DNA of 64,000 nt from Bacteroidota bacterium (lineage in GTDB: Bacteria > Bacteroidota > Bacteroidia > 2-12-FULL-35-15): positions 72,432 to 136,431 of the forward strand of contig CANJYB010000007.1 in the NCBI GenBank assembly GCA_947479085.1, written 5' to 3'. This document shows positions 1,835-64,000 of this stretch, one piece after another (the first letter of the stretch is position 1; each line of letters begins with the position of its first letter). The notes beneath the pieces are model-generated. The model was given only the letters and a program-made list of their open reading frames with translations. It did not search any database and had not been told where the DNA came from. Position numbers and translations under genes: made by a program.

Positions 1835-3610
1835 ATGAAGTATAATTATTCTCCGTTTTATTCCCTTGTAAAAGCAAACTGCAAATTAGTTTTGATAGCC
1901 TTTTTTTTCCTTTTTATTAATTCCATAAAAACAGCTAATGCCCAGGGAATCTGGACTCCGCTTGCCAATCTTGCTCCGGACAGTTGTGGCGGAGTGATGA
2001 TACTTTTGTCGGATGGAAGTGTAATTGCAAAAGGATATACAGGAGGCAATGATAGTATTGGAGCTATCTGGAGTAAACTTACTCCGGATATTCATGGAAG
2101 TTATGTAAATGGCACCTGGTCATCCATTGCACCCATGCACGATACCCGTCTTTATTTTTCCTCGCAGGTATTAAAAGATGGTCGGGTATACGTGGCAGGC
2201 GGAGAGTATGGTACAGGTGGTTCAAAAGCTGAAGTATATAATCCACTTACCGATGTATGGACAATGGCACCTAACCAGGGAGTTGGTTATAGTGATGCAA
2301 ATTCGGAAATTTTACCTGATGGCAGGGTATTACAGGCTATAGTTGGAGCAGGTTCTCACACTACTACAATTTATAACCCGGTTACCAATTCCTGGATGCC
2401 ATCTCCCACCGCATTGGGTTCTCACAATGAATCAGCATGGGTTACACTTGCCGACCAAAGTATTTTATTTGTGAATGTAGGAAGCACCAATTCTGAGCGA
2501 TACATTCCCTCTTTAAATCAATGGATAGTGGATGCCCAGGTTCCGGTTAACCTTTATGATCCATTTGGTTCGGAATGTGGAGCAGGTTTATTGTTACCTG
2601 ATGGGCGTGCTTTCTTTTTAGGAGGAACAAATCAAACAGCCTATTACACACCTTCAGGAACAACGGCAATGGGAACCTGGACAGCAGGACCAAACATTCC
2701 AAATAACAGAGGGGTTCCGGATGCGGCAGCAGCAATGATGGTGAATGGGAAAATTCTTTGTGCTGTTTCTCATGCTCCTTATTCCTCATCTCATATTTTT
2801 GATCCGCCTACCTGGTATTATGAATTTGATTATTTAACCAATTCGTTTAATCCTGTTCTTGCTCCTAATGGATCAGACACTACAAGTTTACCTTGCTATT
2901 ATTCCAATATGCTTCAACTTCCCGATGGGAATATTTTATATGCAGATCAGGAGGCCCGTCAGTATTATGTTTATACTCCTGCCGGAAATTCCCTGGCAGC
3001 AGGAAAGCCATCCATTGATAGTGTTTGGACAGATGTAAACTGCAATTATACTATCACCGGAATTAATTTTAACGGAATCTCGGCAGGGGCTTCTTATGGC
3101 GATGACTGGCAAATGTCGACCAACTATCCTTTGGTAAGATTAACCAACGGAACGAATGTGTACTACGCACGAACCTTTAACTGGAACAGAACAGATGTTC
3201 AAACGGGAACATTGCCAGATACTGCTCAGTTCACTCTTCCTGCTGGCTTGCCATTTGCAACTTATTCTTTACAGGTTGTTGTAAATGGAATAGCATCTGA
3301 CCCTATGTCTTTTATTCCTTGTTTGGATTTGGGAGTTCATAATACTATAAATACCAATTCAACAATCGTTGGTGTATATCCAAATCCTGCATCTTCTGAA
3401 TTAACTGTTTCCATTTCTCTTGAATCAAAAGCCGATATAAATATTCAAATTCAGGATGTTTTGGGGCAGGTTTTAAAAAATGAAAACCTGGGAAGTATTT
3501 CTACAGTAACAAGTAAAGTAATCGACATAACTAATTTACCTAAAGGGATTTATTTTGTTAAAACCTCAATTGATAATAAGGTAATAATTAATAAATTTAT
3601 AAAAGACTAA
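1835..3610 (+). CDS. Kelch/galactose-oxidase-like beta-propeller protein with T9SS type-A C-terminal sorting domain
   Basis: 591 aa with a signal peptide and repeated GG...DG...Y...GG Kelch-like blades. The C-terminus (VYPNPASSELTVSIS...GIYFVKTSIDNKVIINKF) is typical of Por/T9SS CTDs. Confidence 0.75.
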   Translation: MKYNYSPFYSLVKANCKLVLIAFFFLFINSIKTANAQGIWTPLANLAPDSCGGVMILLSDGSVIAKGYTGGNDSIGAIWSKLTPDIHGSYVNGTWSSIAPMHDTRLYFSSQVLKDGRVYVAGGEYGTGGSKAEVYNPLTDVWTMAPNQGVGYSDANSEILPDGRVLQAIVGAGSHTTTIYNPVTNSWMPSPTALGSHNESAWVTLADQSILFVNVGSTNSERYIPSLNQWIVDAQVPVNLYDPFGSECGAGLLLPDGRAFFLGGTNQTAYYTPSGTTAMGTWTAGPNIPNNRGVPDAAAAMMVNGKILCAVSHAPYSSSHIFDPPTWYYEFDYLTNSFNPVLAPNGSDTTSLPCYYSNMLQLPDGNILYADQEARQYYVYTPAGNSLAAGKPSIDSVWTDVNCNYTITGINFNGISAGASYGDDWQMSTNYPLVRLTNGTNVYYARTFNWNRTDVQTGTLPDTAQFTLPAGLPFATYSLQVVVNGIASDPMSFIPCLDLGVHNTINTNSTIVGVYPNPASSELTVSISLESKADINIQIQDVLGQVLKNENLGSISTVTSKVIDITNLPKGIYFVKTSIDNKVIINKFIKD

Positions 3611-38829: not shown

Positions 38830-41616
38830 ATGAAATTTAAAACTACACTATTATCATTAATCGCTATGTCGTTTATGGCAGTGGCATTTATAGCTTCAAA
38901 TAAAGTAAGCAATCCTGCAAAAGAACAAAACGAAGCTCGACAGGAGGGAATGGAAGACGATGCGTTGGAACGCATGAACTATGAATTGAGGCGATATGCA
39001 GACCCGGCTACCGGCAAAATCCCTGAAAATGTTCGTCAGAAAGAACTTGCTTATGCAGCAACTCTGCCTAATGATGGGGATGGAAGCCGTTCGAATCCTT
39101 TGGTATTTACCAATCGTGGTCCCTGGAATGTGGGTGGTCGTACACGTGCGTTTGGTGTAGATGTTAGTAATGAAAATCATTTGCTTGCCGGTTCCTGTTC
39201 AGGTGGAATGTGGCTTTCTTCTGACGGAGGAGCATCCTGGAGTATGACCAATACCAACTCTCAATTAAAAAATGCAAGTTGCCTGGCGCAGGACAAACGA
39301 CCTAATCATACAAATGTATGGTATTATGGAAGTGGCGAAGCTTACGGAGCATCCGCATCAGGAAGTGGAAGTAATTCCTATTATTTGGGCGATGGTATAT
39401 TTAAGTCTATAGATGGTGGTGCAAACTGGTCACCGATTGCAGCTACAGCAGGTGGTAATCCAGGAGGATTCACCACAGGATGGCAATTGGTTTGGGCTTT
39501 GGCAAACGATGTATCAGCTCCTGATACCGCAAGTATTATTTATGCGGCTATTTACGGTGGAGTATATAAAAGTGTAAATGGAGGTACTACCTGGGTAGGG
39601 GTAAAAACGGCAGCAAATACTTATTTTACCAATGTGGAGGTGGATACAGCAGGAACAGTTTACGCCACCCTCTCTGATGATGGTGGAGGTTCAAAAGGCA
39701 TCTGGCGTTCTCCAAATGGAACTACTTTTACGAAGATTACACCTCCTAATTTCCCTACGGTTTATAACAGGATAGTTTCAGGAATAAATCCCAATAACAG
39801 GAATGAGGTTTATTTCATGGCAAACACCCCGGGTTTTGGAAAACAAATCTTTGACTATTTAGGAAATCCACATTGGAATAGTTTATGGAAATACACTTAT
39901 TTGTCAGGCAATGGAGATAGTGCAGGTGGGGCATGGCAGGATTTATCGGTTAATTTACCAACCACCGGAAGTTTATTTGATGCTTTTCATACTCAGGATT
40001 CGTATGATATGGTGGTGAAAGTAAAACCGGGAAATTCGAATGTTGTTTTTATTGGAGGGACAAATGTATATCGTTCAACCTCCGGCTTCCAGGATTCCAC
40101 TCATACCACTTTTGTTGGCGGATACGAGCAAAATTCTCATTTGCCGGTTATTAACACCTATCTAAATCATCATCCTGACCAACATTGCCTGGAATTCCTG
40201 CCCTCTAATCCTGACGTAATGTTCAGTGCAAATGATGGCGGGGTATTTAAAACAAACAATAATACTGATTCTGTTACAGTTTGGCAATCATTGAACAATG
40301 GTTATTTAACCACCATGTTTTATACAGTTGCCATTGATCATGCTACTCCCAATAACGACATTATTATAGGAGGCGCTCAGGATAACGGAAGCTGGTACAC
40401 CAATAGTTCCAATCCTACAGTGCCTTGGGTAACCCCTCGAAGTGGTGATGGTTCTTATTGCGCTATTGCTGACAATCAAACCAATTATTATTTTTCTATT
40501 CAGCAGGGTAAAATGATGAAAGCAACTCTTAATGCAAGTGGTGGCATTACTTCGTATGCAAGGATAGACCCAAGAAATTTAAAGAAACCTGAATTTATTA
40601 ACCCATTTACCCTTGACCCGAATAACAATGACATTATGTATTTAGCAGGAGGTAAATATTTATGGAGAAATGATAATCTTGCAGGTATTCCTATGATTGG
40701 AAACTGGGATTCGATAAACACAAACTGGACACAATTTACTGATTCAGTTCCTACTGTTAATTCTGTTATTACTGCTGTTACTGCATGTAAAATCCCTGCT
40801 AACAGGGTGTATTATGGTACTGATAACAAAAGAATTTACAGGGTGGACAATGCCAATGTGGGAACGCCAACTCCTATTGATATTACCTCAACTACTACAA
40901 CTGCATTGTTTGCTGTTGGTGCATATTGCAGCAACATAGCAGTGGACCCGAGAGATGGAAATAAAGTCATGGCAATATTTTCCAACTATGGTACCTATAG
41001 TATTTTTTATTCTACTGATGGTGGAACAACCTGGGCAAAAGCAGGTGGAAACCTTGAAACGGCATCAGCAACAGCACCTTCCATTCGCTGGGCAAGTATT
41101 ATTCCTGTGGCGGACGGTACGGTGTATATGGTAGCAACCAGTACGGGCATGTATGCCACTGATACACTTATGGGTACAACCACTTCATGGGTGCAGCAAG
41201 GAACAAATACAATCGGTAATGCGGTATGTGATATGATTGATGTAAGAACTTCTGATGGATTAGTAGTAATAGCCACCCATGCAAATGGTATTTATTCCAC
41301 TCATGTTACTTCTGTAAATGATATCACCAGAATAAACGACATTGCAGAAAAAAGGAAAGAATTGAAATTATCTGCTTTTCCAAATCCGACAGCAGAGAAT
41401 TGTACAATTGAATTTACTTTAACTAAAAAATCAAAAGTAAACCTTCAGATATGGGATGAATGTGGTCGATTGGTAGAAACCTTAATTGACGAAATGCTTC
41501 CCGAAGGAAAACAAACCATTCAGTTTGACAGGAAAAATTTAAAAGCAGGTATTTATTATTATAGTTTAACAGCCGATAATAAAAGGAAGACGAACAAACT
41601 GGTGATAGTAAAGTAA
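38830..41616 (+). CDS. BNR/Asp-box repeat (sialidase/sortilin-like beta-propeller) protein with T9SS type-A C-terminal sorting domain
   Basis: 928 aa with signal peptide and multiple S-x-D-G-G-x-(T/S)-W Asp-boxes (SSDGGASWS, SIDGGANWS, SVNGGTTW, STDGGTTWA). The C-terminus (…LSAFPNPTAENCTIEF…YYYSLTADNKRKTNKLVIVK) is a T9SS CTD. Confidence 0.8.
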   Translation: MKFKTTLLSLIAMSFMAVAFIASNKVSNPAKEQNEARQEGMEDDALERMNYELRRYADPATGKIPENVRQKELAYAATLPNDGDGSRSNPLVFTNRGPWNVGGRTRAFGVDVSNENHLLAGSCSGGMWLSSDGGASWSMTNTNSQLKNASCLAQDKRPNHTNVWYYGSGEAYGASASGSGSNSYYLGDGIFKSIDGGANWSPIAATAGGNPGGFTTGWQLVWALANDVSAPDTASIIYAAIYGGVYKSVNGGTTWVGVKTAANTYFTNVEVDTAGTVYATLSDDGGGSKGIWRSPNGTTFTKITPPNFPTVYNRIVSGINPNNRNEVYFMANTPGFGKQIFDYLGNPHWNSLWKYTYLSGNGDSAGGAWQDLSVNLPTTGSLFDAFHTQDSYDMVVKVKPGNSNVVFIGGTNVYRSTSGFQDSTHTTFVGGYEQNSHLPVINTYLNHHPDQHCLEFLPSNPDVMFSANDGGVFKTNNNTDSVTVWQSLNNGYLTTMFYTVAIDHATPNNDIIIGGAQDNGSWYTNSSNPTVPWVTPRSGDGSYCAIADNQTNYYFSIQQGKMMKATLNASGGITSYARIDPRNLKKPEFINPFTLDPNNNDIMYLAGGKYLWRNDNLAGIPMIGNWDSINTNWTQFTDSVPTVNSVITAVTACKIPANRVYYGTDNKRIYRVDNANVGTPTPIDITSTTTTALFAVGAYCSNIAVDPRDGNKVMAIFSNYGTYSIFYSTDGGTTWAKAGGNLETASATAPSIRWASIIPVADGTVYMVATSTGMYATDTLMGTTTSWVQQGTNTIGNAVCDMIDVRTSDGLVVIATHANGIYSTHVTSVNDITRINDIAEKRKELKLSAFPNPTAENCTIEFTLTKKSKVNLQIWDECGRLVETLIDEMLPEGKQTIQFDRKNLKAGIYYYSLTADNKRKTNKLVIVK

Positions 41617-56891: not shown

Positions 56892-57344
56892 TTATATTAT
56901 TTTCGCAAACCAAGCAAGTAATTCCGCACTTGGCATAAAAAGAATTTGAGCAAATATAGTTCCTATCAGTCTTGCAATGGTCATATACACAATATATTTT
57001 CTGAAAGTTGCTTCTGAACACTTTCCTAATGTAACATCGTCTGTCATTGCTGACAAATGAGGGTCAATAAATGCAAACATTAATATGGTCGCAAACCCGT
57101 TTATAAACGCTGATAGATTACTTGCAGTGGTTCTGTATTCTGGATTCAGGTAGGAAGCGTAAACAGCAGACAAAACACCTATTGTCATTATAGCTACTGC
57201 AAATATGTTCAGGAGAAATATTCGCCAGGGGAAATCTTTGTTAAGTTCTATTTGTGTTATATGTCCTTTTGTAGGTATAGTTATGTTGTCTTTGAAATAC
57301 AATATTCCGGCTTTTGAAAAGCCGTGAAACAGTAGTCTTGACAT
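56892..57344 (-). CDS. hypothetical membrane protein
   Basis: 150 aa with about 3 predicted TM helices; no recognised domain. Confidence 0.4.
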   Translation of the reverse strand: MSRLLFHGFSKAGILYFKDNITIPTKGHITQIELNKDFPWRIFLLNIFAVAIMTIGVLSAVYASYLNPEYRTTASNLSAFINGFATILMFAFIDPHLSAMTDDVTLGKCSEATFRKYIVYMTIARLIGTIFAQILFMPSAELLAWFAKII

Positions 57345-57373
57345 AGATTTATGTGTACTGAAATTAACTACTG

Positions 57374-58065
57374 CTAATAATAAGCACCATCATCACCTGT
57401 TCCCATTCCACTTTGAATATTTGTATTAGCTGGTAAACGAAAATTACCAATGGTCATAAACCGTTCACCTCCATTAGCAATAAAATCACCTGAAATAAGC
57501 ATCCAATTGTTGGTATCATTAAGAATATTTGTGGAGGCATTTTCTATTTGGGGTTGATAATTACTTAACGTATAAAATTGAGCAGTTGTTTGTAATAAAC
57601 TATCCTCCGAAAAATATGCTCCCATATTGCTTATTGAAAAGAGCGATGATCCAGTTAATGACACATAAAATTCTACACAATATTTTCTGTTAGTTACTAA
57701 TGAATCTAATAAAGGCACTTCTATATATTCTCTAGCATTAATAGTGTCAATAACACCATAGAACCCTCCGTATCCATTTCCAGTTCTTGCATTTTGATAG
57801 CCTGCAATATTTAAAGGAACATCACCATAAGCCATTGTACTGCATGTATTAAATAAATCAGTACTTGAACTGTTAGTTGTAGTACCACCAAATTTATTTG
57901 GTTGAAACCAAGGAGGGGCTTTAAAAATATATGCAGGACCAACAAAACAGGACGTGGTGGTTTCAAAGGAATTGTTTGGAACAAGATTTTGGGCTTGAGA
58001 GTGAGAAATAAGAAATAAGAAATAAACAATGCTTTTTTCATGGCAATAGGATTAAAAAAAGGCAA
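57374..58065 (-). pseudogene. frameshifted and truncated paralog of the T9SS cargo family at 58102..59121 and 59667..60662
   Basis: ORF 57811..58065 (MKKALFISYFLFL…) and ORF 57374..57835 (…NIAGYQNARTGNGY…EYIEVPLLDS…RKYCVEFYVSL…) together match the N-terminal two-thirds of the 331 aa paralog but lie in different frames. The sequence stops at …GAYY and lacks the T9SS CTD. Confidence 0.6.
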
Positions 58066-58101
58066 CCGTTTGCACTTATGTGCAAAACGGTTGCTTTTTT
58101 G
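58055..58101. terminator. terminator hairpin between paralogs
   Basis: AAAAAAAGGCAACCGTTTGCACttatgTGCAAAACGGTTGCTTTTTTG. Confidence 0.7.
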
Positions 58102-59121
58102 TTATTTAATAATTACTAATTTATCTGTTTTTATTTTATTACCATCTATATTTATTTCATAAAAATAGATGCCAGCATCTAGTTGACTTGCGTTTATAGT
58201 TGAATTGTTAGCAGAGCCATTAAAACTATTAGAGTCAATTAGTTTACCAGTTACATCAAAAATAGTAAGAACTCCGTTTTGATGTTCCCCTATGTTGTAT
58301 TCCAGCACCATATTCCCATTACTTGGGTTTGGATATAATTTCAAATCAACTTTATTACCTAATTCCCCTACCCCTAAACCGGTGCAATCCACCACACTTA
58401 TATCATCAAAGTAGAAACCCGCACCTAATTGAGCGCCTCCTCCTACGTTTTGTTTTATTGTATTTACATCATTTCTAAAATTACCAATGGTAATAAACCT
58501 TTCTCCTCCTAATGCTAAAAAACTACCGGATATTAATGTCCAGTTGTTTTTATCTGTTATTATATTTGTATCAGGGTTTTCCACCTGTGGTATTACTTGT
58601 ATGGGGGCAAAAGTAGAACTTGAATAGAGTAAACTATCTGTTGAAAAATAGGCACCAAGACTACTTGACCCATACTGGCAAGAATCAAAAAGTGAAACAT
58701 AATAGGTAACGCAATAAGTGTGCCCTGCTATTAGTGGGATTGTTAATGAATCTTCAATATATTCCCTTCTATTGGGTTCAAGATAGGTATAAATGCCAAC
58801 ATAAGCGTTTCCTGTTCTAGGTACTTGGGCTCCGCTGTATGTGTTAGCAGGTACACTAACAAGACCATAAGGTGCACATTGGTTGTAATAATCCGAACTT
58901 GTATAGTTTATTCCGTTAATATAATTCGGTTGAAACCAAGGCGGAGCTAACCATAGACAACCAGGACCTACAGGGCAACTTGTGAAATTTTCAAAACTAC
59001 TATTTGGAACAAGGTTTTGTCCTAATGCAGATGACATTATACTAGATAAAATTGCAAATACAAATATTAATTTTTTCATTTTTTTTAGTGTAAAAAAAGA
59101 ACCCCTTTTGCTTTTTTGCAA
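58102..59121 (-). CDS. T9SS-secreted hypothetical protein, paralog B-prime (T9SS type-A CTD)
   Basis: 339 aa (true start probably MKKLIFVFAILSS at about 59079). Shares …NLVPNSSFENFT(S/T)CP…APPWFQPN…EYIE…C(V)…YVSL…LISG(S/N)F…GGE(R/K)F(I/M)TIGNF… with the gene at 59667..60662. CTD: …LKLYPNPSNGNMVLEY…AGIYFYEINIDGNKIKTDKLVIIK. Confidence 0.75.
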   Translation of the reverse strand: MQKSKRGSFFTLKKMKKLIFVFAILSSIMSSALGQNLVPNSSFENFTSCPVGPGCLWLAPPWFQPNYINGINYTSSDYYNQCAPYGLVSVPANTYSGAQVPRTGNAYVGIYTYLEPNRREYIEDSLTIPLIAGHTYCVTYYVSLFDSCQYGSSSLGAYFSTDSLLYSSSTFAPIQVIPQVENPDTNIITDKNNWTLISGSFLALGGERFITIGNFRNDVNTIKQNVGGGAQLGAGFYFDDISVVDCTGLGVGELGNKVDLKLYPNPSNGNMVLEYNIGEHQNGVLTIFDVTGKLIDSNSFNGSANNSTINASQLDAGIYFYEINIDGNKIKTDKLVIIK

Positions 59122-59137
59122 AAGGGTTTCTTTTTTG
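59094..59137. terminator. terminator hairpin between paralogs
   Basis: GAACCCCTTTTGCttttttGCAAAAGGGTTTCTTTTTTG; a related copy lies at 60644..60686. Confidence 0.7.
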
Positions 59138-59138
59138 A

Positions 59139-59663
59139 TTATTTAATAATTACTAATTTATCTGTTTTTATTTTACCGCCATCTATTTTTATTTCATAAA
59201 AATATACACCAGCATCTAATTGGGTTGCATCTATGGTTTCGTGAGATACGGCACCATTAAAACTATGTGAACTAATTATTTTGCCTGTGATATCAAAAAT
59301 AGTAAGCACGCCATTTTGATGTTCTCCAATACTTTTTTCTAATATAAAATTACCATTATTAGGATTTGGATATAGCTTTACATTATTAGACGAAGCAGTT
59401 GAAATCGAATTGCCATGATGCACCAAACTCTTTCCCATTTCCAAGCAATAGTCATCAAAACTTACTCGCTCGCCTATAATATCGAAATACATCATTCTGG
59501 CTTGCCACACTATGCTTCCGCCTTCGTTTTGGCATTGGCTGGCTATGGAATAGATGGCTGAAGAATCGCCAGCTGTATATTGATAACCTGGGTTATTTTG
59601 CTGTAGCAGGTAATAGTAGTTTACCAACTTTTCGTTGGCTTGAATTTGGTTGCTGGCAGCCAT
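59139..59663 (-). CDS. chimeric gene fragment: C-terminal linker region of the 922 aa beta-helix protein joined to a paralog-B-prime-type T9SS CTD
   Basis: 174 aa. Residues about 1-85 are near-identical to residues about 745-830 of the 922 aa protein (…ASNQIQANEKLVNYYYLLQQNNPGYQYTAGDSSAIYSIASQCQ…WQARMMYFDIIGERVSFDDYCLE…). The CTD matches that of 58102..59121 (…IGEHQNGVLTIFD(I/V)TGK…DAG(V/I)YFYEI(K/N)IDG.KIKTDKLVIIK). Nucleotide identity to 61040..61210 is about 90% or higher. Confidence 0.45.
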   Translation of the reverse strand: MAASNQIQANEKLVNYYYLLQQNNPGYQYTAGDSSAIYSIASQCQNEGGSIVWQARMMYFDIIGERVSFDDYCLEMGKSLVHHGNSISTASSNNVKLYPNPNNGNFILEKSIGEHQNGVLTIFDITGKIISSHSFNGAVSHETIDATQLDAGVYFYEIKIDGGKIKTDKLVIIK

Positions 59664-59666
59664 TTA

Positions 59667-60662
59667 TTATTGTACTACAACCTTTTTATTTAGTATCCCG
59701 TTTTCAGTATTTACTTTTATAAAGTAAATTCCCTTTGCCTCTTTACTTATATCTATAATTATACTAGTGCCAGTAACTTGTTGCATCTTTATTTCTTCCC
59801 CCAGCATATTAAAAACAGCAACACTTTTTATTTTTTCTTTTCTGCTTTTTACTTCAAAAACCCCTTCGCTTGGGTTTGGGTAAACACTTATGTTCATATT
59901 TTCTGTTACTTCATTTACACCGTCATTGGTGCAATCCACAACACTTACATCATCTATGTAATAATATGCGCCATCTGTCATTGTTCCAAACGCGTTCTGC
60001 ATATTAGTAGTTGCTGGAGTATGAAAATTACCTATAGTCATATATTTTTCTCCTCCTGTTGCTATAAAATTTCCGGATACCAACATCCAGTTGGTGGTAT
60101 CATTAAGCATATTGTTTGATGAATTTTCTATTTGAGGAGTATAATTACTTAACGCATAAAACTGCGAAGTGGTTTGAATAACACTATCTACAGAGAAGTA
60201 AGCACCCATATTGCTTATTGCATAAAGCGAAGTGCCTGCTAACGAAACATAAAACTCCACACAATATTTTCTATTGGCTATCAGTGTATCTAATAAAGGC
60301 ACTTCTATGTATTCTCTAACATTATTAGTATCTATGCTACCACAGATTCCGGAATACCCATTGCCAGTTTTTGCATTTTGATACCCTTCAATATTTAAAG
60401 GAACTCCTACCCACGCGGCACTAGCACAAGTATTATATAGGTCGGAGCTGGAATTATTAATTCCATTAAAAAAATTGGGCTGAAACCAAGGCGGTGCTAA
60501 ATAAATTTGAATTGGGTAAGTTGGACAAGTAGTAAAATTTTCAAACGAATTATTTGGGACTATATTTTGAGACTGAGAGTATGTAATAAGAAATAAGAAA
60601 TAAGTAACAAACAAGGCTTTTTTCATGCTAATTGGATTTAAATAAAAGAAACCCTTTTGCAA
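59667..60662 (-). CDS. T9SS-secreted hypothetical protein, paralog B (T9SS type-A CTD)
   Basis: 331 aa (likely start MKKALFVTYF at about 60626). CTD …ISVYPNPSEGVFEV…GIYFIKVNTENGILNKKVVVQ. Confidence 0.75.
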   Translation of the reverse strand: MQKGFFYLNPISMKKALFVTYFLFLITYSQSQNIVPNNSFENFTTCPTYPIQIYLAPPWFQPNFFNGINNSSSDLYNTCASAAWVGVPLNIEGYQNAKTGNGYSGICGSIDTNNVREYIEVPLLDTLIANRKYCVEFYVSLAGTSLYAISNMGAYFSVDSVIQTTSQFYALSNYTPQIENSSNNMLNDTTNWMLVSGNFIATGGEKYMTIGNFHTPATTNMQNAFGTMTDGAYYYIDDVSVVDCTNDGVNEVTENMNISVYPNPSEGVFEVKSRKEKIKSVAVFNMLGEEIKMQQVTGTSIIIDISKEAKGIYFIKVNTENGILNKKVVVQ

Positions 60663-60686
60663 AAAAGCAAAAGGGTTTCTTTTATT
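60644..60686. terminator. terminator hairpin
   Basis: AAAAGAAACCCTTTTGCaaaaaaGCAAAAGGGTTTCTTTTATT. Confidence 0.7.
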
Positions 60687-60687
60687 A

Positions 60688-63456
60688 TTATTTAATAATT
60701 ACTAGTTTGTCATTCTTTACTTTTGTGTTATTAATCAACACATCGTATAAATAAATACCTGCTTCCATAGCATCAGCATCTATTGATGCACTGGCATTGC
60801 TGGCATTTAATGTGTAATTTTTAATTAGTTTTCCGGCAATATCATAAATGGCGATACTTCCGGTTTCATTATCTTCTAAATGATACTCTAAAGTAAAATT
60901 ACCATTATTAGGGTTTGGATATAGTCTTACATTATTGCTTTGTTTAGGAGCACTTGTATTGGTATTATGCACCATACTTTTTCCCTCCTCCAAACAATAA
61001 TCATCGAAACTTACCCTCTCACCAATAATGTCAAAATACATCATTCTTGCCTGCCATACCACATTGCCCCCTTGGCTTTGGCATTGGCTGGCTATGGAAT
61101 AGATAGCTGAAGAATCACCAGCTGTATATTGATAACCTGGGTTGTTTTGCTGTAGCAGGTAATAATAGTTTACCAACTTTTCGTTGGCTTGTATTTGGTT
61201 ACTGGCAGTTACACTGTTATTAGTAACATCGGCTGTGGCATAGTCTTTTGCAGCTATGGCATTTCCTACTTCTTTTAGTTGCCCCATGGTGGTATATTTT
61301 GCACTGTCGTAATAGCTCTGCAAGACTCCCGAAGTATCGTCTGCCACTGCACCATTGGTGCTATCAAGTACGCTATATGCCACTGCTTTGTTTTGGTATT
61401 GCAGTTCAGATGTAAATTGTTGGTAGTTAGTGGTATCATTAGCCAACGGTATCAATTCTCTGGCAGCCAGTATATCGCCATTGCCTCCGCCTCCGGCAAC
61501 TATTGCCTGAACCGCTATATTATTACAGTCATAATATGTACCTAATGCAGCTTGCAAACCAGCACCATAAGTGTTAACAGCAACAGGGCTCCAATTTAAA
61601 GTAGGAAATGTAATATATCCACCAGTAGGGGTATTGTCTAAAAACAAAACAGAAGCCGTATTAGCATTGTTAGTTACATTATCCACATACGTTTCCTTGG
61701 TAAACCCGTTACCAGCAGAAGTATTCCACAATAAATCTATTGGGTGGGTAGCATCGCCTTGCTGCCCCAGCACAAAACCACTACGCAACGCCAACCCATG
61801 TTGCCCTTGGCTCATGGTGTTGTTGAGAATAAAATTAAAGCCAACAGCGTTATTACTAAAGGTCATGCTTTCGCCCAGCCCTGTAATGGTATTACATTCA
61901 ATAGAAGACTTTGTACTTGCATTATCCCATATTCCGTGGTACCAAGGAGTAACATTTGCCGGATATGTTCCCGTATGCCCGGTAAGTACTGTGTTATCAG
62001 TAGAGCTTATGGTATTGTTAAGCACCCTTGGTTTAAAACAGTTTTGTATTTCTATTCCGCTACCTGTGGTAGTTCCCGCCACAGTGGAATGAACCACCTC
62101 CAAGTTTAGGTTGTCGTATATGGTTAAACCTAAATAGACATTTGTGGCTACTATACAAGTAAAACATTTAGTAATCGTATTGCCCCTTACCTTGTATTTA
62201 TCAGTTGCCATTCCAACAACGGTTTGAAGCGGATCTGACAAATCAATCCCAAACTTACAATACCCCACACCATTGGCTTGAGAGGTGGTAATGGTATTGC
62301 CATCCACTTTTATATCAGTAGCATCAAGCCCGGTAGTGTTTCTTTTAATATTAATACCGGTGGAATAGTTGGTAATACCATTATTAAAAACTTCGGTAGT
62401 GCTTGCATCGGCAGGCCACACGCTAATACCCAATACTCCTGTGTTAAGTGTAGTTGCTTTTATGCGAAGAGTATTGTTATACACAAACACAGATCTGTAA
62501 AAACGAATGTCAATGGCTTTCCAGGTTTCAGAAAATCCATTGCCTTGGTTTAGCCCAGCACCTCCTATGGTTAAAGTATATGCTGCAGTATTTACGCCTT
62601 GTGCAAATATACCAATTGGACTTGTTAGCCCAATCGCTGCATTCAAGGGTTGATTAAGGAACTGGTTATTATAGACAACCACACTGGAAGCATTAATATT
62701 AATACCTTTATTCATGTTGTCAAAGGTATTCAAAAATCCTGCACTTCCGTCATCGCCTATTTGAACTCCTCCAATGGAATTAATTTTAATACCTATAAGA
62801 GAAACAGTTCCTCCGGAGTTCAAAAGGCCCGATGGCAATAAACCAGCCACAATATCAGCCTTTACGTTTGTAGAACTAAATGTAGCATCTAAGCCAAATG
62901 TGGCATTAAAATAAGAAGCAGGCATTGTTCTGCTTGTAAAGACAGTATTCCTTATGTTGTTTGTTGGCACTATAGAGCCTGTGGTGCTAAGAAACGAGAT
63001 ACTTGTACTGTTTCTGTTAAACACCACATTATCTATATTGTAATTACCTTTACCAAGCGTAACTGCAGTAGTAGCGTCTTCTATCAGCGAATTCCCATTT
63101 ATTATTAACGGAGCTGGCAGCGTACCTTGGTTTATTCCAATCCACATACTGGGACTGCAACTAAAAATGTGAGTACGATTAGTGATTGTTAAACTGGTAG
63201 TTGGTCCGGTTAATAAGGTAATGGATGCGGTGGCGTCCATTTTAATATTACAGTTGTCAAATGTAACGGGAGCGTTAATAGTTATAGGTCCTCCTATAAA
63301 CAAGTCCTGTCCGGTATAGATTCCACCTGCAAATGCGCCAGCTGGCACAAAAGTAAAGGGAGCGATTAAGCACCCTGTTTGCGCTTTCATCTTTCCGCTC
63401 AAGCCAAAAAATATACAGGCGAGCAGAATAATTGTTTTTAAATTTATTTTTTTCAT
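60688..63456 (-). CDS. large right-handed parallel beta-helix (pectin-lyase-fold-like) surface protein with T9SS type-A CTD
   Basis: 922 aa with signal peptide MKKINLKTIILLACIFFGLSG and many degenerate N/T/G-rich beta-helix turns (…NNTISSTDNTVLTGHTG…, …NNGITNYSTGINI…). The C-terminus (…VRLYPNPNNGNFTLEY…GIYLYDVLINNTKVKNDKLVIIK) is a T9SS CTD. Confidence 0.8.
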   Translation of the reverse strand: MKKINLKTIILLACIFFGLSGKMKAQTGCLIAPFTFVPAGAFAGGIYTGQDLFIGGPITINAPVTFDNCNIKMDATASITLLTGPTTSLTITNRTHIFSCSPSMWIGINQGTLPAPLIINGNSLIEDATTAVTLGKGNYNIDNVVFNRNSTSISFLSTTGSIVPTNNIRNTVFTSRTMPASYFNATFGLDATFSSTNVKADIVAGLLPSGLLNSGGTVSLIGIKINSIGGVQIGDDGSAGFLNTFDNMNKGININASSVVVYNNQFLNQPLNAAIGLTSPIGIFAQGVNTAAYTLTIGGAGLNQGNGFSETWKAIDIRFYRSVFVYNNTLRIKATTLNTGVLGISVWPADASTTEVFNNGITNYSTGINIKRNTTGLDATDIKVDGNTITTSQANGVGYCKFGIDLSDPLQTVVGMATDKYKVRGNTITKCFTCIVATNVYLGLTIYDNLNLEVVHSTVAGTTTGSGIEIQNCFKPRVLNNTISSTDNTVLTGHTGTYPANVTPWYHGIWDNASTKSSIECNTITGLGESMTFSNNAVGFNFILNNTMSQGQHGLALRSGFVLGQQGDATHPIDLLWNTSAGNGFTKETYVDNVTNNANTASVLFLDNTPTGGYITFPTLNWSPVAVNTYGAGLQAALGTYYDCNNIAVQAIVAGGGGNGDILAARELIPLANDTTNYQQFTSELQYQNKAVAYSVLDSTNGAVADDTSGVLQSYYDSAKYTTMGQLKEVGNAIAAKDYATADVTNNSVTASNQIQANEKLVNYYYLLQQNNPGYQYTAGDSSAIYSIASQCQSQGGNVVWQARMMYFDIIGERVSFDDYCLEEGKSMVHNTNTSAPKQSNNVRLYPNPNNGNFTLEYHLEDNETGSIAIYDIAGKLIKNYTLNASNASASIDADAMEAGIYLYDVLINNTKVKNDKLVIIK

Positions 63457-64000
63457 TTTTTTTGTATTTAATATATCGCCCCTGGCCCCGAAGGGCAGGG
63501 TAAGATATATTGGTTATTTTAATATATAAGTTTGATTTTCGCCTATTGTCTGCTGTTAAAGCAGGCATAAAGAACTATAGAAAGGCATATATAGCTAACC
63601 ATCTGCTTACTATACTTTTGCAGATGATAAAATGTGGAAAAATTTTGTTTTTTTTAGTAACAGTGGAATAATCAAAATGTTACCTTTGCGTTAGTGAGGT
63701 CTCGAAAATTTCACGACTGTAAAGGGGGTATTTTTTTAAACCATGTGTTTTTAAATTTACCTCCTTTATTTTTTAGTTAGTTTATACTATACCAAACCAG
63801 CATTTTTGTTTGGCTTTTTTGTTCGTTTTTTTTTATTAATTTTTTGCCTCACAAAAAAAATAAAATTATATTTCAAAAGTACAATTAAAAACAAACGAGT
63901 GCATATTAATATATTAACAATTTATTGCACTATAATCAATGCTTTTTGCAGATTTTTTTTTCTCTAAGAGAATCCCTTAGTCCCCAAAACGCTAAAAATT

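What the first reader, a model, noticed from the sequence alone, without database searches (positions are those of the whole stretch)
57374..63456. Tandemly duplicated and recombined array of T9SS cargo genes (A-B-A'fragment-B'-B''pseudogene) with shuffled C-terminal sorting domains
A 922 aa beta-helix protein (A) and a 331 aa protein (B) are followed by: a 174 aa ORF whose first half is about 90% identical at the DNA level to the A linker region but whose T9SS CTD is the B'-type CTD; a second full B paralog (B', 339 aa); and a frameshifted, CTD-less third B copy. Intergenic terminator hairpins (GAAACCCTTTTGC…GCAAAAGGGTTTC) are repeated between the units. This looks like cassette-style duplication with CTD exchange. 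It could diversify surface-exposed T9SS cargo, or may simply be ongoing gene decay.
Basis: seen in the sequence. Interest (0 to 1): 0.55.

Follow-up and report, generated by a model that had tools for sequence, protein, structure and literature searches.

The report
Old mosaic array of T9SS cargo genes
This is a tandem family of secreted-protein genes in an uncultured freshwater Bacteroidota bacterium; it was built long ago by duplication and by swapping of secretion tails between neighbouring genes, it now carries one dead copy and one truncated copy, and it is not an active switching system.

Summary
The described anatomy is real. On the minus strand lie A (922 aa), B (319 aa from its likely ATG), A' (174 aa), B' (325 aa) and a broken B''. 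Stable terminator hairpins follow A, A' and B'.

The "linker" is a conserved, unannotated helical domain that sits just before the T9SS C-terminal sorting domain (CTD) in many cargo proteins. B is a signal peptide, a CBM4/16/22-like beta-sandwich and a CTD.

CTD exchange is real but ancient:
- A' joins an A-derived pre-CTD domain (14.5% nt divergence) to a CTD of another lineage (38% from A's CTD, 76% aa identity to B').
- B' falls among relatives that carry type-B CTDs, yet it carries its upstream neighbour's type-A CTD.
- The shared A'/B' CTDs already differ at dS about 1.3.

Every copy pair shows dS of at least about 0.3, usually saturated, and omega of 0.1-0.2. No sequence variants appear in 7-10 contigs.

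Related genomes carry A-B-B(-B) arrays without A'. Others carry their own truncated A-type 3' fragments ahead of B genes, and decayed terminal B copies. This fits birth-and-death evolution with junction recombination.

A' lacks a signal peptide but shows purifying selection. It is most likely a recently truncated second A gene. Ordinary overall, with one open question.

The parts
60688..63456 (-). Gene A: 922-aa T9SS cargo. It has an N-terminal signal peptide (MKKINLKTIILLACIFFGLSGKMKAQ), a large repeat-rich body (beta-helix not verified), a helical pre-CTD domain (about 60979-61209), a variable spacer and a type-A CTD (60691-60924).
   Evidence: ORF. CTD matches PF18962 at E 6e-13. A 55%-identical full-length orthologue heads a similar array in L002.
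60641..60686 (-). T1: 20-bp perfect palindromic hairpin followed by a U-run, between A and B. It is an intrinsic-terminator type, and the B start codon lies 15 nt downstream.
   Evidence: RNA fold -28.1 kcal/mol, z -8.5.
59667..60626 (-). Gene B: 319 aa. It has a signal peptide, a CBM4/16/22-like beta-sandwich N-domain and a short 'b-type' type-A CTD (59670-59885) unrelated to the A-type CTDs (21-30% identity). It ends in TAA TAA.
   Evidence: AF2 pLDDT 90. Foldseek hits CBM4 3k4z at E 3e-8, CBM16 and CBM22, and CTD 8glk_D at TMt 0.85. CTD identities.
59139..59663 (-). A': 174-aa ORF with no signal peptide. It has a helical pre-CTD domain (59439-59663) derived from the A lineage, a disordered spacer, and a type-A CTD (59142-59375) of the B' lineage. 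It starts immediately after, and in frame with, the double stop of B.
59091..59134 (-). T2: terminator hairpin between A' and B'. It is a near copy of T1.
   Evidence: RNA fold -22.1 kcal/mol, z -6.2.
58102..59079 (-). Gene B': 325 aa. It is a divergent B-family paralogue (49% to B). Its N-domain clusters with homologues that carry type-B CTDs, yet it bears an A-type CTD 76% identical to that of A'.
58051..58105 (-). T3: terminator hairpin between B' and B''. It occupies the same position as T1 and T2 but has a different stem sequence.
   Evidence: RNA fold -23.1 kcal/mol, z -6.2.
57374..58041 (-). B'': pseudogene, sister to B (70% aa). Its ATG and signal-peptide start are out of frame with the rest, because it is about 7 nt shorter than B within a TTATTTC repeat near 58000-58030. 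It has no CTD, and its stop lies 29 nt before the Amj-family gene (PF10997) that starts at 57344.
   Evidence: B'' branch 32 syn: 45 nonsyn against 36:27 for B. Bootstrap for B+B'' is 82%. The same 153-aa ORF is seen on 7 contigs.

Best explanation
The region is one example of a recurrent gene cluster of uncultured, mostly freshwater Bacteroidota. A large T9SS cargo gene (A) is followed by tandem paralogues of a small cargo family (B).

How the products work (inferred from established T9SS knowledge):
- A has a signal peptide, a large body, a small helical pre-CTD domain and a type-A CTD.
- B has a signal peptide, a CBM-like beta-sandwich and a CTD.
- Each intact product would be exported by Sec and recognised through its CTD by the T9SS translocon. 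It would then be released or anchored on the cell surface.
- The B proteins most plausibly bind glycans.

How the array evolved:
- It evolves by birth and death. Every gene ends in a homologous module of CTD, terminator hairpin and the 5' end of the next B gene. Unequal recombination and gene conversion at these junctions can therefore duplicate units, delete units and move CTDs between neighbours.
- In this lineage an A...B unit was duplicated after the split from the L002 lineage, giving A-B and A2-...-B''.
- The CTD lineage now shared by A2 and B' was exchanged between them long ago.
- Part of A and A2 was later homogenised by gene conversion.
- Recently A2 lost its first ~748 codons, leaving A'.
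- B'' lost its signal-peptide frame and its CTD.

What is shown: the module homologies, the chimerism of A', the incongruence between CTD and N-domain trees, the age of the copies, the purifying selection, and the arrays in other genomes.

What is inferred: the order of events, a full-length A2 ancestor, the recombination mechanism, and glycan binding.
For: Anatomy and homologies.

Family and fold:
- The B N-domain has 534 homologues, almost all ~300-340 aa, with either PF18962 or PF13585 tails.
- AF2 pLDDT is 90, with Foldseek hits to CBM4/16/22 and to T9SS CTD structures.
- The pre-CTD domain occurs in 75 representative clusters, placed just ahead of the C-terminal sorting domain in the proteins examined. 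It folds as a helical bundle, then a disordered spacer, then the CTD.

Lineage-specific duplication:
- (A, A') are sister relative to L002_A, 24:2:6 informative sites.
- (B, B'') are sister, bootstrap 82%, and join L002_B1/P0007 at 71%.

CTD exchange:
- A' CTD to B' CTD is 76% aa; to A CTD 47%. A CTD is closer to its orthologue (61%).
- B' sits in the type-B-CTD clade.
- L002_B1 CTD is 71% identical to its upstream neighbour but 25% to the CTD of P0007, whose N-domain is 84% identical.
- L008 B1/B2 share a ~100-nt tract at 93-98% identity exactly across the N-domain/CTD boundary. This is a recent conversion in a related array.

Age and selection:
- Pre-CTD domain: dS 0.86, omega ~0.07-0.12.
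- A' branch: 12 syn : 2 nonsyn (P = 2.5e-7 under neutrality).
- A'/B' CTDs: dS 1.33, omega 0.11.
- B/B'': dS 1.6, omega 0.13.

Birth and death elsewhere:
- A-B-B(-B) arrays without A' occur in L002 and L008.
- Truncated A-type 3' fragments lie ahead of B-like genes in L010, L012 (next to a Y1 transposase gene) and L018/L019 (with a degenerate CTD motif).
- Terminal B copies are truncated in L008 and L020.

Stability: the same proteins appear on 7-10 contigs from ENA, NCBI and Logan assemblies, with one-member 90% clusters.
Against: - No full-length A2 was found in any relative, so a formerly intact second A gene is inferred, not seen.
- The unit offset of 1549 nt, the TAATAA microhomology at the junction, and the ATG exactly at the homology boundary also fit a one-step partial duplication that created A' already truncated.
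- L010 has a fragment starting within ~5 codons of the same boundary, also with omega 0.15. That is somewhat surprising for two independent, recent truncations. However, the fragments were found with the pre-CTD domain as query, which biases towards fragments that keep it.
- B' lies between A' and B'', which needs an extra event.
- Promoters were not found. The B genes start 12-18 nt after strong hairpins, so the transcription units are unknown.
- Signal peptides were judged by eye only.
- Only distant relatives (<=55% aa for A) were available.
Confidence: 0.6

Rival explanations
1. A' is a selectively maintained gene in its truncated form. It could be a non-secreted pre-CTD+CTD protein with an unknown role, or a silent donor 'spare part' that exchanges sequence with the 3' end of A by gene conversion. 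It would be co-transcribed with B and translated by re-initiation at TAATAAATG.
For: - The ORF is intact, with an ATG at the homology boundary.
- A' branch shows 12 syn: 2 nonsyn, and A' keeps ancestral residues that A has lost.
- The youngest 120-nt tract has 6 synonymous and 0 nonsynonymous differences (P ~0.001 if one copy were neutral).
- The A' CTD against the B' CTD gives omega 0.11.
- A second genome (L010) has a 167-aa signal-peptide-less fragment at almost the same boundary, with omega 0.15 and a fragment branch of 13:6.
- The identity gradient shows that A and A' have exchanged sequence.
Against: - With no signal peptide, the CTD cannot reach the T9SS.
- Observed bacterial relics are expected to be young and so to look 'purified'. 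A conversion tract that once ran further upstream into a full-length A2 would look identical after truncation.
- Fragments in other genomes have different boundaries, about 20, 50 and 170 codons upstream.
- One of those fragments sits next to a transposase gene. Another has a degenerate CTD motif.
- There is only one 'cassette'. It is 14.5% diverged, and no recombinant A alleles appear in 7 contigs.
- The closer relatives L002 and L008 lack it.
Confidence: 0.2
2. A' was born truncated by a single ~1.55-kb tandem duplication of the segment [pre-CTD - CTD - T1 - B]. The breakpoints lay at the start of the pre-CTD domain and just after the stop of B. Later conversions and replacements produced today's mosaic.
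For: - The three homologous blocks show a constant offset of 1549-1550 nt.
- There is TAATAA microhomology at the junction.
- L010 shows the same unit length (~1552 nt) once its 1.4-kb insert is removed.
Against: - Divergence along the unit is far from uniform: 5% to 20% to 40% nt, and about 50% aa for B against B'.
- The gene after A' is B', a distant subfamily member, not the sister of B. That sister is B''.
- This model requires long-term purifying selection on a signal-peptide-less fragment, which merges it with the rival above.
Confidence: 0.13
3. Active cassette-style shuffling: ongoing recombination among the units diversifies surface-exposed cargo or their sorting tails within populations.
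For: - The architecture is modular, with repeated junction modules.
- CTD swaps are demonstrable over evolutionary time.
- A recent conversion tract is seen in a related array.
- There is precedent for recombination among C-terminal adhesin domains of P. gingivalis T9SS cargo (PMC5266723).
Against: - dS is 0.3 to above 1 between all copies. The longest identical run is 28-37 nt.
- The repeats are direct, so crossover deletes rather than switches.
- The array contains no recombinase gene and no flanking inverted repeats.
- Identical proteins occur on 7-10 contigs, with single-member 90% clusters.
- One 'cassette' is dead (B'') and another lacks a signal peptide.
Confidence: 0.05
4. Assembly artefact: the tandem arrangement is a mis-join of alleles from co-existing strains.
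For: The source is a short-read metagenome contig (MEGAHIT-style name).
Against: - The repeats are 14-50% diverged, so they are easily resolved.
- The same gene order and identical proteins were recovered on 10 contigs, in ENA, NCBI and Logan assemblies.
- Analogous arrays occur in unrelated assemblies.
Confidence: 0.02

Closest known systems
Domain rearrangement and gene conversion among Porphyromonas gingivalis T9SS cargo (kgp, rgpA, hagA adhesin modules; Dashper et al. 2017, PMC5266723)
   Same: Paralogous T9SS cargo genes share modular C-terminal regions ending in a conserved CTD. Recombination between paralogues produces mosaic genes whose module history disagrees with the rest of the gene.
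   Different: In P. gingivalis the variation is seen between strains, involves adhesin modules, and is linked to antigenic variation. Here the exchanged module is the sorting domain itself, sometimes with its pre-CTD domain. The genes are adjacent in one array, the events are ancient (dS > 1), and no strain-level variation is visible.
T9SS type-A (TIGR04183/PF18962) and type-B (TIGR04131/PF13585) CTD cargo classes
   Same: A, B, A' and B' carry bona fide type-A CTDs. Their sequences pass the curated thresholds, and the predicted beta-sandwich superposes on CTDs in T9SS translocon structures.
   Different: One cargo family (B) occurs with either class of tail. Class membership is incongruent with the N-domain tree, so the tail class is not a stable property of the cargo family. 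By my own knowledge, which was not tested here, type-B CTDs usually depend on a dedicated PorP/SprF-like partner.
Birth-and-death plus concerted evolution of tandem multigene families (general model, my own knowledge)
   Same: The array shows tandem paralogues of mixed age, pseudogenised terminal copies, partial copies, mosaic identity from gene-conversion tracts, and different copy numbers in related genomes.
   Different: Nothing essential differs. The particular feature here is that recombination breakpoints cluster at the cargo/CTD boundary and in the CTD-terminator-5' gene junction.
Silent-cassette antigenic variation (Neisseria pilE/pilS, Borrelia vlsE; my own knowledge)
   Same: A promoterless, signal-peptide-less partial copy of the 3' part of an expressed surface-protein gene lies nearby. 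It shows evidence of past sequence exchange and of selection on its coding sequence.
   Different: There is a single partial copy, 14.5% diverged. No long identical flanks exist and no population heterogeneity is seen. The copy includes the sorting signal rather than an exposed variable region.

Membership tests
T9SS type-A CTD cargo (TIGR04183 / PF18962) | C-terminal ~75-aa domain scoring above the curated Pfam/NCBIfam threshold | tested here: met
   A scores 49.3 bits, B 52.5, A' 52.3 and B' 53.9 against a cut-off of 27. TIGR04183 scores are 43-53 against 23. B'' has no hit.
T9SS type-A CTD cargo (TIGR04183 / PF18962) | CTD adopts the Ig-like beta-sandwich seen in solved T9SS substrates | tested here: met
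   The AF2 models of B and A' have CTD pLDDT above 90. Foldseek matches 8glk_D, 8gl6_D and 8gl8_D (TMt 0.82-0.85) and the mirolase CTD 8qb1 (TMt 0.69-0.73).
T9SS type-A CTD cargo (TIGR04183 / PF18962) | N-terminal Sec signal peptide, needed to reach the periplasm, in A, B and B' | tested here: met
   Judged by inspection only, since no predictor was available. Each has an MKK... start, a hydrophobic core and a polar end: A MKKINLKTIILLACIFFGLSGKMKAQ, B MKKALFVTYFLFLITYSQSQ, B' MKKLIFVFAILSSIMSSALG.
T9SS type-A CTD cargo (TIGR04183 / PF18962) | N-terminal Sec signal peptide, in A' and B'' | tested here: not met
   A' begins MAASNQIQANEKLVNYYY with no hydrophobic segment, and two in-frame stops lie immediately upstream. 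The B'' signal-peptide codons are out of frame with the domain. Neither should be filed as functional T9SS cargo.
T9SS type-A CTD cargo (TIGR04183 / PF18962) | Host genome encodes the T9SS machinery (SprA/Sov, PorV, PorU, GldK-N) | not tested
   Only the array and its flanks were examined. The Bacteroidota origin is inferred from homologue annotations.
Carbohydrate-binding module, CBM4/CBM16/CBM22-like beta-jelly-roll (B N-domain) | Beta-sandwich fold superposable on solved CBMs | tested here: met
   Foldseek matches 3k4z CBM4 (E 2.7e-8), 3p6b CBM4 (TMt 0.57), 2zew/3oea CBM16 (TMt 0.68-0.69) and 4xuo CBM22 (TMt 0.65).
Carbohydrate-binding module, CBM4/CBM16/CBM22-like beta-jelly-roll (B N-domain) | Sequence membership in a curated CBM family (for example PF02018 CBM_4_9) | tested here: not met
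   Neither Pfam nor NCBIfam hits the N-domain at E<=0.01. B works like a CBM by fold only, and ligand binding cannot be tested here.
Right-handed parallel beta-helix proteins (PF13229), for A | Match to beta-helix repeat profiles | tested here: not met
   Pfam gives no hit for A, its L002 orthologue P0126 or P0132, even at E<=5. A PDB profile search finds only the CTD. The only support is the 30%-identical P0002, which carries PF13229. No structure prediction was run for A.
Programmed variation systems (silent cassettes / shufflons) | Population heterogeneity at the locus, near-identical recombination flanks or inverted repeats, and a dedicated recombinase | tested here: not met
   A and A' form single-member 90% clusters on 7-10 contigs. 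The longest identical run is 28-37 nt. Only direct repeats are present, apart from the hairpins. The array contains no recombinase gene.
Pseudogene (B'') | Disrupted reading frame and loss of essential parts relative to intact paralogues, with relaxed constraint | tested here: met
   A frameshift separates the start/signal peptide from the domain, and the CTD is missing. The polarised B'' branch shows 32 syn: 45 nonsyn against 36:27 on B, so omega is ~0.38 against ~0.20.

The most novel reading that the evidence does not exclude
Signal-peptide-less 'pre-CTD + CTD' ORFs such as A' may be a selectively maintained gene type that recurs ahead of B-family genes in Bacteroidota cargo arrays. The window's A' and L010's P0138 are under purifying selection. 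The role could be as gene-conversion donors that reset or swap the C-terminal sorting region of the neighbouring large cargo gene. Alternatively, they could be cytoplasmic proteins with a role in cargo handling.
Probability: 0.2. Interest if true: 0.6.

Novelty: new member of a known kind. Interest (0 to 1): 0.33.

Why it matters
Three points are of modest use.

1. T9SS sorting domains behave as exchangeable modules even within one small cargo family. Type-A long, type-A short and type-B tails all occur on one N-domain family. A gene tends to acquire the tail of its upstream neighbour. Anyone inferring cargo fate or orthology from CTD class should take this into account.

2. The analysis defines two unannotated domains common in uncultured Bacteroidota: a CBM-like cargo domain and a small helical pre-CTD domain.

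3. It leaves one real puzzle: truncated, non-exportable pre-CTD+CTD ORFs that look selectively constrained.

None of this overturns current understanding. The array itself is an ordinary birth-and-death gene family.

Tried and rejected
- A GTDB genome scan with A alone found nothing. With an alignment it found only distant relatives, L008 and L009.
- The word-index search with full-length A missed its 55% orthologue, apparently because CTD-sharing candidates swamped it.
- The same tool found nothing with the 93-aa pre-CTD query, so that search was wasted.
- The sigma-70 promoter scan was no better than shuffles (31 hits against 29.9 expected). A hand scan for the Bacteroidota -7 motif TAnnTTTG found no promoter between the hairpins and the B starts. 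Transcription units remain unknown.
- Rfam finds nothing in 56.5-64 kb.
- Foldseek of the A' model hit only the CTD and nothing for the helical domain.
- I considered the conserved hairpin sequence as a protein-binding or REP-like element. I rejected this because related arrays keep the structure with different stems, meaning compensatory change as in ordinary terminators.
- I considered read-through of B into A', since they are in frame. I rejected this because two consecutive TAA codons intervene and TAA is the stop used by every gene in the array.
- I at first took the 95% tract abutting the A' boundary as proof that A' was already truncated when last converted. I rejected this because a tract that ran further into a full-length A2 would look the same after deletion.
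- I judged the 'same boundary in several genomes' argument to be weakened by ascertainment. The fragments were found with the pre-CTD domain as the query.

Full report
**1. Observation**

All features lie on the minus strand:
- A: 63456..60688, 922 aa.
- B: 60626..59667, 319 aa from the ATG. The listed 331-aa ORF starts at an upstream TTG that overlaps the hairpin. The source contig's gene call also gives 319 aa.
- A': 59663..59139, 174 aa.
- B': 59079..58102, 325 aa.
- B'': 58041..57374, disrupted.

Self-comparison gives three long direct homologies, with E values from 1e-59 to 1e-116:
- Offset 1549 nt: A C-terminal region, T1 and the 5' end of B match A', T2 and the 5' end of B'.
- Offset 1037 nt: the A' CTD, T2 and the 5' end of B' match the B' CTD, T3 and the 5' end of B''.
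- Offset 2586 nt: the end of the A CTD, T1 and B match the end of the B' CTD, T3 and B''.

A, B, A' and B' carry type-A T9SS sorting domains above curated thresholds. B'' does not.

Three stable hairpins followed by U-runs (-22 to -28 kcal/mol, z from -6 to -8.5) follow A, A' and B'. T1 and T2 share the quoted stem. T3 has a different one. No hairpin lies between B and A'. The stop of B, TAA TAA, is followed directly and in frame by the ATG of A'.

B'' has one frameshift in the signal-peptide region. It is about 7 nt shorter than B within a TTATTTC repeat. It ends at GAYY*, just before the point where the CTD should follow, and 29 nt ahead of the next gene, an Amj-family gene.

The window matches a 186.6-kb ENA metagenome contig over the 2 kb checked. 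The exact A' protein is on 10 contigs with the same neighbours. The A, B and B'' proteins recur in ENA, NCBI and Logan assemblies. The arrangement is therefore not an assembly artefact.

**2. What the parts are**

*The B family.*
- The N-domain has 534 homologues. Almost all are 300-340 aa, with one N-domain plus either a type-A (PF18962) or a type-B (PF13585) T9SS tail. The few that carry a source name are labelled Bacteroidota MAG proteins.
- An AlphaFold model (pLDDT 90) shows a beta-sandwich. It matches CBM4, CBM16 and CBM22 modules, and its CTD superposes on CTDs in solved T9SS translocon complexes.
- No curated sequence family covers the N-domain.

*The A 'linker'.*
- It is not a linker. 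An exhaustive HMMER search finds it in 75 representative clusters of 66-2859 aa. In the long hits the match ends about 80-90 residues before the C-terminus, and in the 17 proteins aligned it sits just ahead of the CTD.
- It is predicted to be a four-helix domain (pLDDT 91-98). A disordered spacer and then the CTD follow it.
- Two cysteines are conserved, with the motif IA.QCP..GG.AVWQAR...F.D.C.

*A.* It has a 55%-identical full-length orthologue. The 'beta-helix' label was not confirmed.

**3. Related arrays**

| Locus | Source | Layout |
|---|---|---|
| L002 | JGI 3300021354, 6.2 kb | A-orthologue, B1 (P0006), B2 (P0045); only 58 nt between the two B genes, no A' |
| L008 | GTDB MAG, Bacteroidota ELA565 | A-like, B1, B2, B3 (B3 stops at 157 aa) |
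| L010 | ENA contig | A-like 3' end, B-like, 1.4-kb insert, 167-aa signal-peptide-less pre-CTD+CTD ORF (P0138), B-like; homology to the upstream A-like gene (88% over 660 nt) starts 7 nt before the ATG |
| L012 | ENA scaffold | 257-aa A-type 3' fragment directly after a Y1-transposase gene and before a B-like gene |
| L018/L019 | two NCBI MAGs, identical over 3.7 kb | A-like (1054 aa), B, B, 194-aa fragment, B; the fragment has a degenerate CTD motif, and a signal-peptide-like mini-ORF overlaps its start in another frame |
| L020 | NCBI MAG contig | tandem B genes ending in a truncated 210-aa copy |

A large A gene followed by tandem B genes, plus partial and dead copies, is therefore a recurrent pattern. 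The particular arrangement differs between genomes.

**4. History within the window**

- The pre-CTD domains of A and A' are sister relative to the L002 orthologue: 14.5% nt difference against 27-30%, and informative sites 24:2:6.
- B and B'' are sister (bootstrap 82%) and join L002_B1/P0007 (71%). Both results point to a lineage-specific duplication of an A...B unit.
- The A' CTD has a different history. It is 38% diverged from the A CTD, which is more than A differs from its orthologue (30%). Informative sites are 4:10:7. It is 76% aa identical to the B' CTD. A' is therefore chimeric.
- The B' N-domain is only 48-49% identical to B and B''. It nests in a clade whose nearest members all carry type-B CTDs, yet B' carries the A-type tail of its upstream neighbour.
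- The same pattern occurs in L002. B1's CTD is 71% identical to that of the A gene upstream. P0007 has an 84%-identical N-domain but a CTD only 25% identical.
- In L008, B1 and B2 are 50-70% identical overall. They share a ~100-nt tract at 93-98% identity exactly across the N-domain/CTD boundary, which is a recent gene-conversion tract.
- CTD exchange at module boundaries is therefore real. It is plausibly driven by the repeated module of CTD, terminator and B 5' end.

**5. Age and selection**

Identity between unit 1 and unit 2 falls in steps:
- 95% in the first 120 nt
- 78-80% in the next 120 nt
- 53-65% in the CTD
- 80% at the CTD end and terminator
- about 50-60% in B against B'

The longest identical run is 28 nt.

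| Comparison | dS | Other |
|---|---|---|
| Youngest tract, first 40 codons after the junction | 0.28 | 6 syn : 0 nonsyn |
| Pre-CTD domain, A vs A' | 0.86 | omega ~0.07-0.12 |
| A' CTD vs B' CTD | 1.33 | omega 0.11 |
| B vs B'' | 1.6 | omega 0.13 |
| B vs B' | saturated | |

Polarising with the L002 orthologue gives 12 synonymous and 2 nonsynonymous changes on the A' branch in the pre-CTD domain, against 10:9 on A. A' keeps ancestral residues that A has changed. The probability of at most 2 nonsynonymous changes in 14 under neutrality is 2.5e-7.

The B'' branch is relaxed (32:45 against 36:27) but far from neutral. Its death is therefore late relative to its origin.

In L010 the fragment and its full-length neighbour show dS 0.52 and omega 0.15, with a fragment branch of 13:6.

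**6. Interpretation**

The array is an old, mosaic, birth-and-death family, not an active cassette system:
- The copies are too diverged.
- The repeats are direct.
- No recombinase gene and no flanking inverted repeats are present.
- No variant alleles exist among the contigs that carry it.

B'' is a pseudogene.

A' cannot be T9SS cargo, because it has no signal peptide. Yet it has not evolved as a long-standing pseudogene. I consider it most likely (about 0.6, within the overall model) that A' is the recently truncated 3' end of a second, formerly full-length A paralogue. Four considerations support this:
- Observed bacterial relics are expected to be young.
- Other genomes show A-type genes truncated at various points. 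One fragment lies next to a transposase gene, and one is visibly decaying.
- 3' remnants adjacent to a functional downstream B gene are shielded from deletion.
- The high-identity tract at the boundary is what a conversion tract into a full-length gene would look like after truncation.

Two alternatives remain open:
- A' is maintained as such (about 0.2).
- A' was born truncated by a 1.55-kb partial duplication (about 0.13).

The near-coincident boundary and low omega in L010 are the main evidence for these alternatives. They are tempered by ascertainment bias, because the fragments were found with the pre-CTD domain as the query.

**7. Comparison with known systems**

The closest documented parallel is recombination among C-terminal adhesin modules of P. 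gingivalis T9SS cargo genes (PMC5266723). In that case the variation is between strains and is linked to antigenic diversity. Here the exchanged module is the sorting tail itself and the events are ancient. A search for T9SS, CTD and 'gene conversion' found one paper, whose title concerns comparative genomics of a fish-pathogenic Flavobacterium; I did not open it.

The finding is a new member of a known kind. It is a tandem multigene family evolving by duplication, conversion and decay. Three observations are worth recording: CTD class is not stable within a cargo family, two common domains are unannotated, and truncated pre-CTD+CTD ORFs look constrained.

**8. Limits**

- Signal peptides were judged by eye.
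- Promoters were not found.
- The order of events is inferred.
- The nearest relative with DNA is only 55% identical in A.
- No sibling strains exist in the collections.
- The T9SS machinery of the host was not checked.
- The beta-helix claim for A is unverified.

Noticed in passing
window 60979-61209 and 59439-59663 (minus strand): The 'linker' is an unannotated ~75-aa four-helix pre-CTD domain with two conserved cysteines (motif IA.QCP..GG.AVWQAR...F.D.C). It occurs in 75 representative clusters of 66-2859 aa; in the long hits the match ends about 80-90 residues before the C-terminus, and in the 17 proteins aligned it lies just ahead of a type-A CTD. It has no Pfam or NCBIfam model and no structural match.
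   Followed up: partly
L008 12600-12720 and 13640-13760 (approx.): The adjacent paralogues B1 and B2 are 50-70% identical overall. They share a ~100-nt tract at 93-98% identity (a 61-nt identical run) exactly across the N-domain/CTD boundary. This is a clear recent gene-conversion tract.
   Followed up: yes
L010 2220-2822, 2815-3020 and 5006-5212: A 1.4-kb insert separates the first B-like gene from the A-type fragment. It holds a 200-aa ORF with no Pfam family on record in the source's gene table. It ends in a ~205-nt element that recurs (85%) after the second B-like gene, so it may be a mobile or repeat element.
   Followed up: no
L012 7471-8774: A Y1-transposase (PF01797, weak) gene overlaps by 4 nt the start of a 257-aa A-type 3' fragment (P0133). 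The first ~40 residues of that fragment are unrelated to A. This looks like truncation of an A-type gene by an IS200-like element, and the fragment is carried on 15 contigs.
   Followed up: partly
L019 4941-5009 (identical in L018): A 22-codon mini-ORF, MLRLLIISVLTLIYSFQCLACN*, resembles a B-family signal peptide. It overlaps, in another frame, the start of the 194-aa pre-CTD+CTD fragment P0153. The CTD motif of P0153 is degenerate (GPIP in place of YPNP). It is probably a decayed chimera of a B 5' end and an A 3' end.
   Followed up: partly
window 60627-60640, 59080-59090, 58042-58050; also L002, L008, L010, L012: Every B-type gene starts only 12-18 nt downstream of a strong terminator-like hairpin, and no Bacteroidota-type promoter motif lies in between. 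The hairpins may attenuate a polycistronic transcript rather than end it. Alternatively, the promoters may lie inside the upstream CTD coding region.
   Followed up: partly
window 57345-57373: The B'' stop lies only 29 nt from the start of an Amj-family gene (PF10997, 56892-57344), with no terminator in between. The deletion that removed the B'' CTD may therefore also have removed T4 and fused the array to the downstream gene.
   Followed up: no
window ~3368-3601 (+) and ~41377-41613 (+): Two further type-A CTD-like segments lie elsewhere in the window (32% identity to the A CTD). More T9SS cargo genes are therefore encoded nearby.
   Followed up: no
window ~63480-63505 (minus strand): A G+C-rich inverted repeat, CCCTGCCCTTCGGGGCCAGGG, lies about 25 nt upstream of the A start codon. 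It stands out in a 37% G+C sequence.
   Followed up: no
L020 1504-2136; L008 14013-14486: The last B-type copy of two other arrays is C-terminally truncated (210 aa and 157 aa), like B'' here. Terminal copies of these arrays seem prone to decay.
   Followed up: partly
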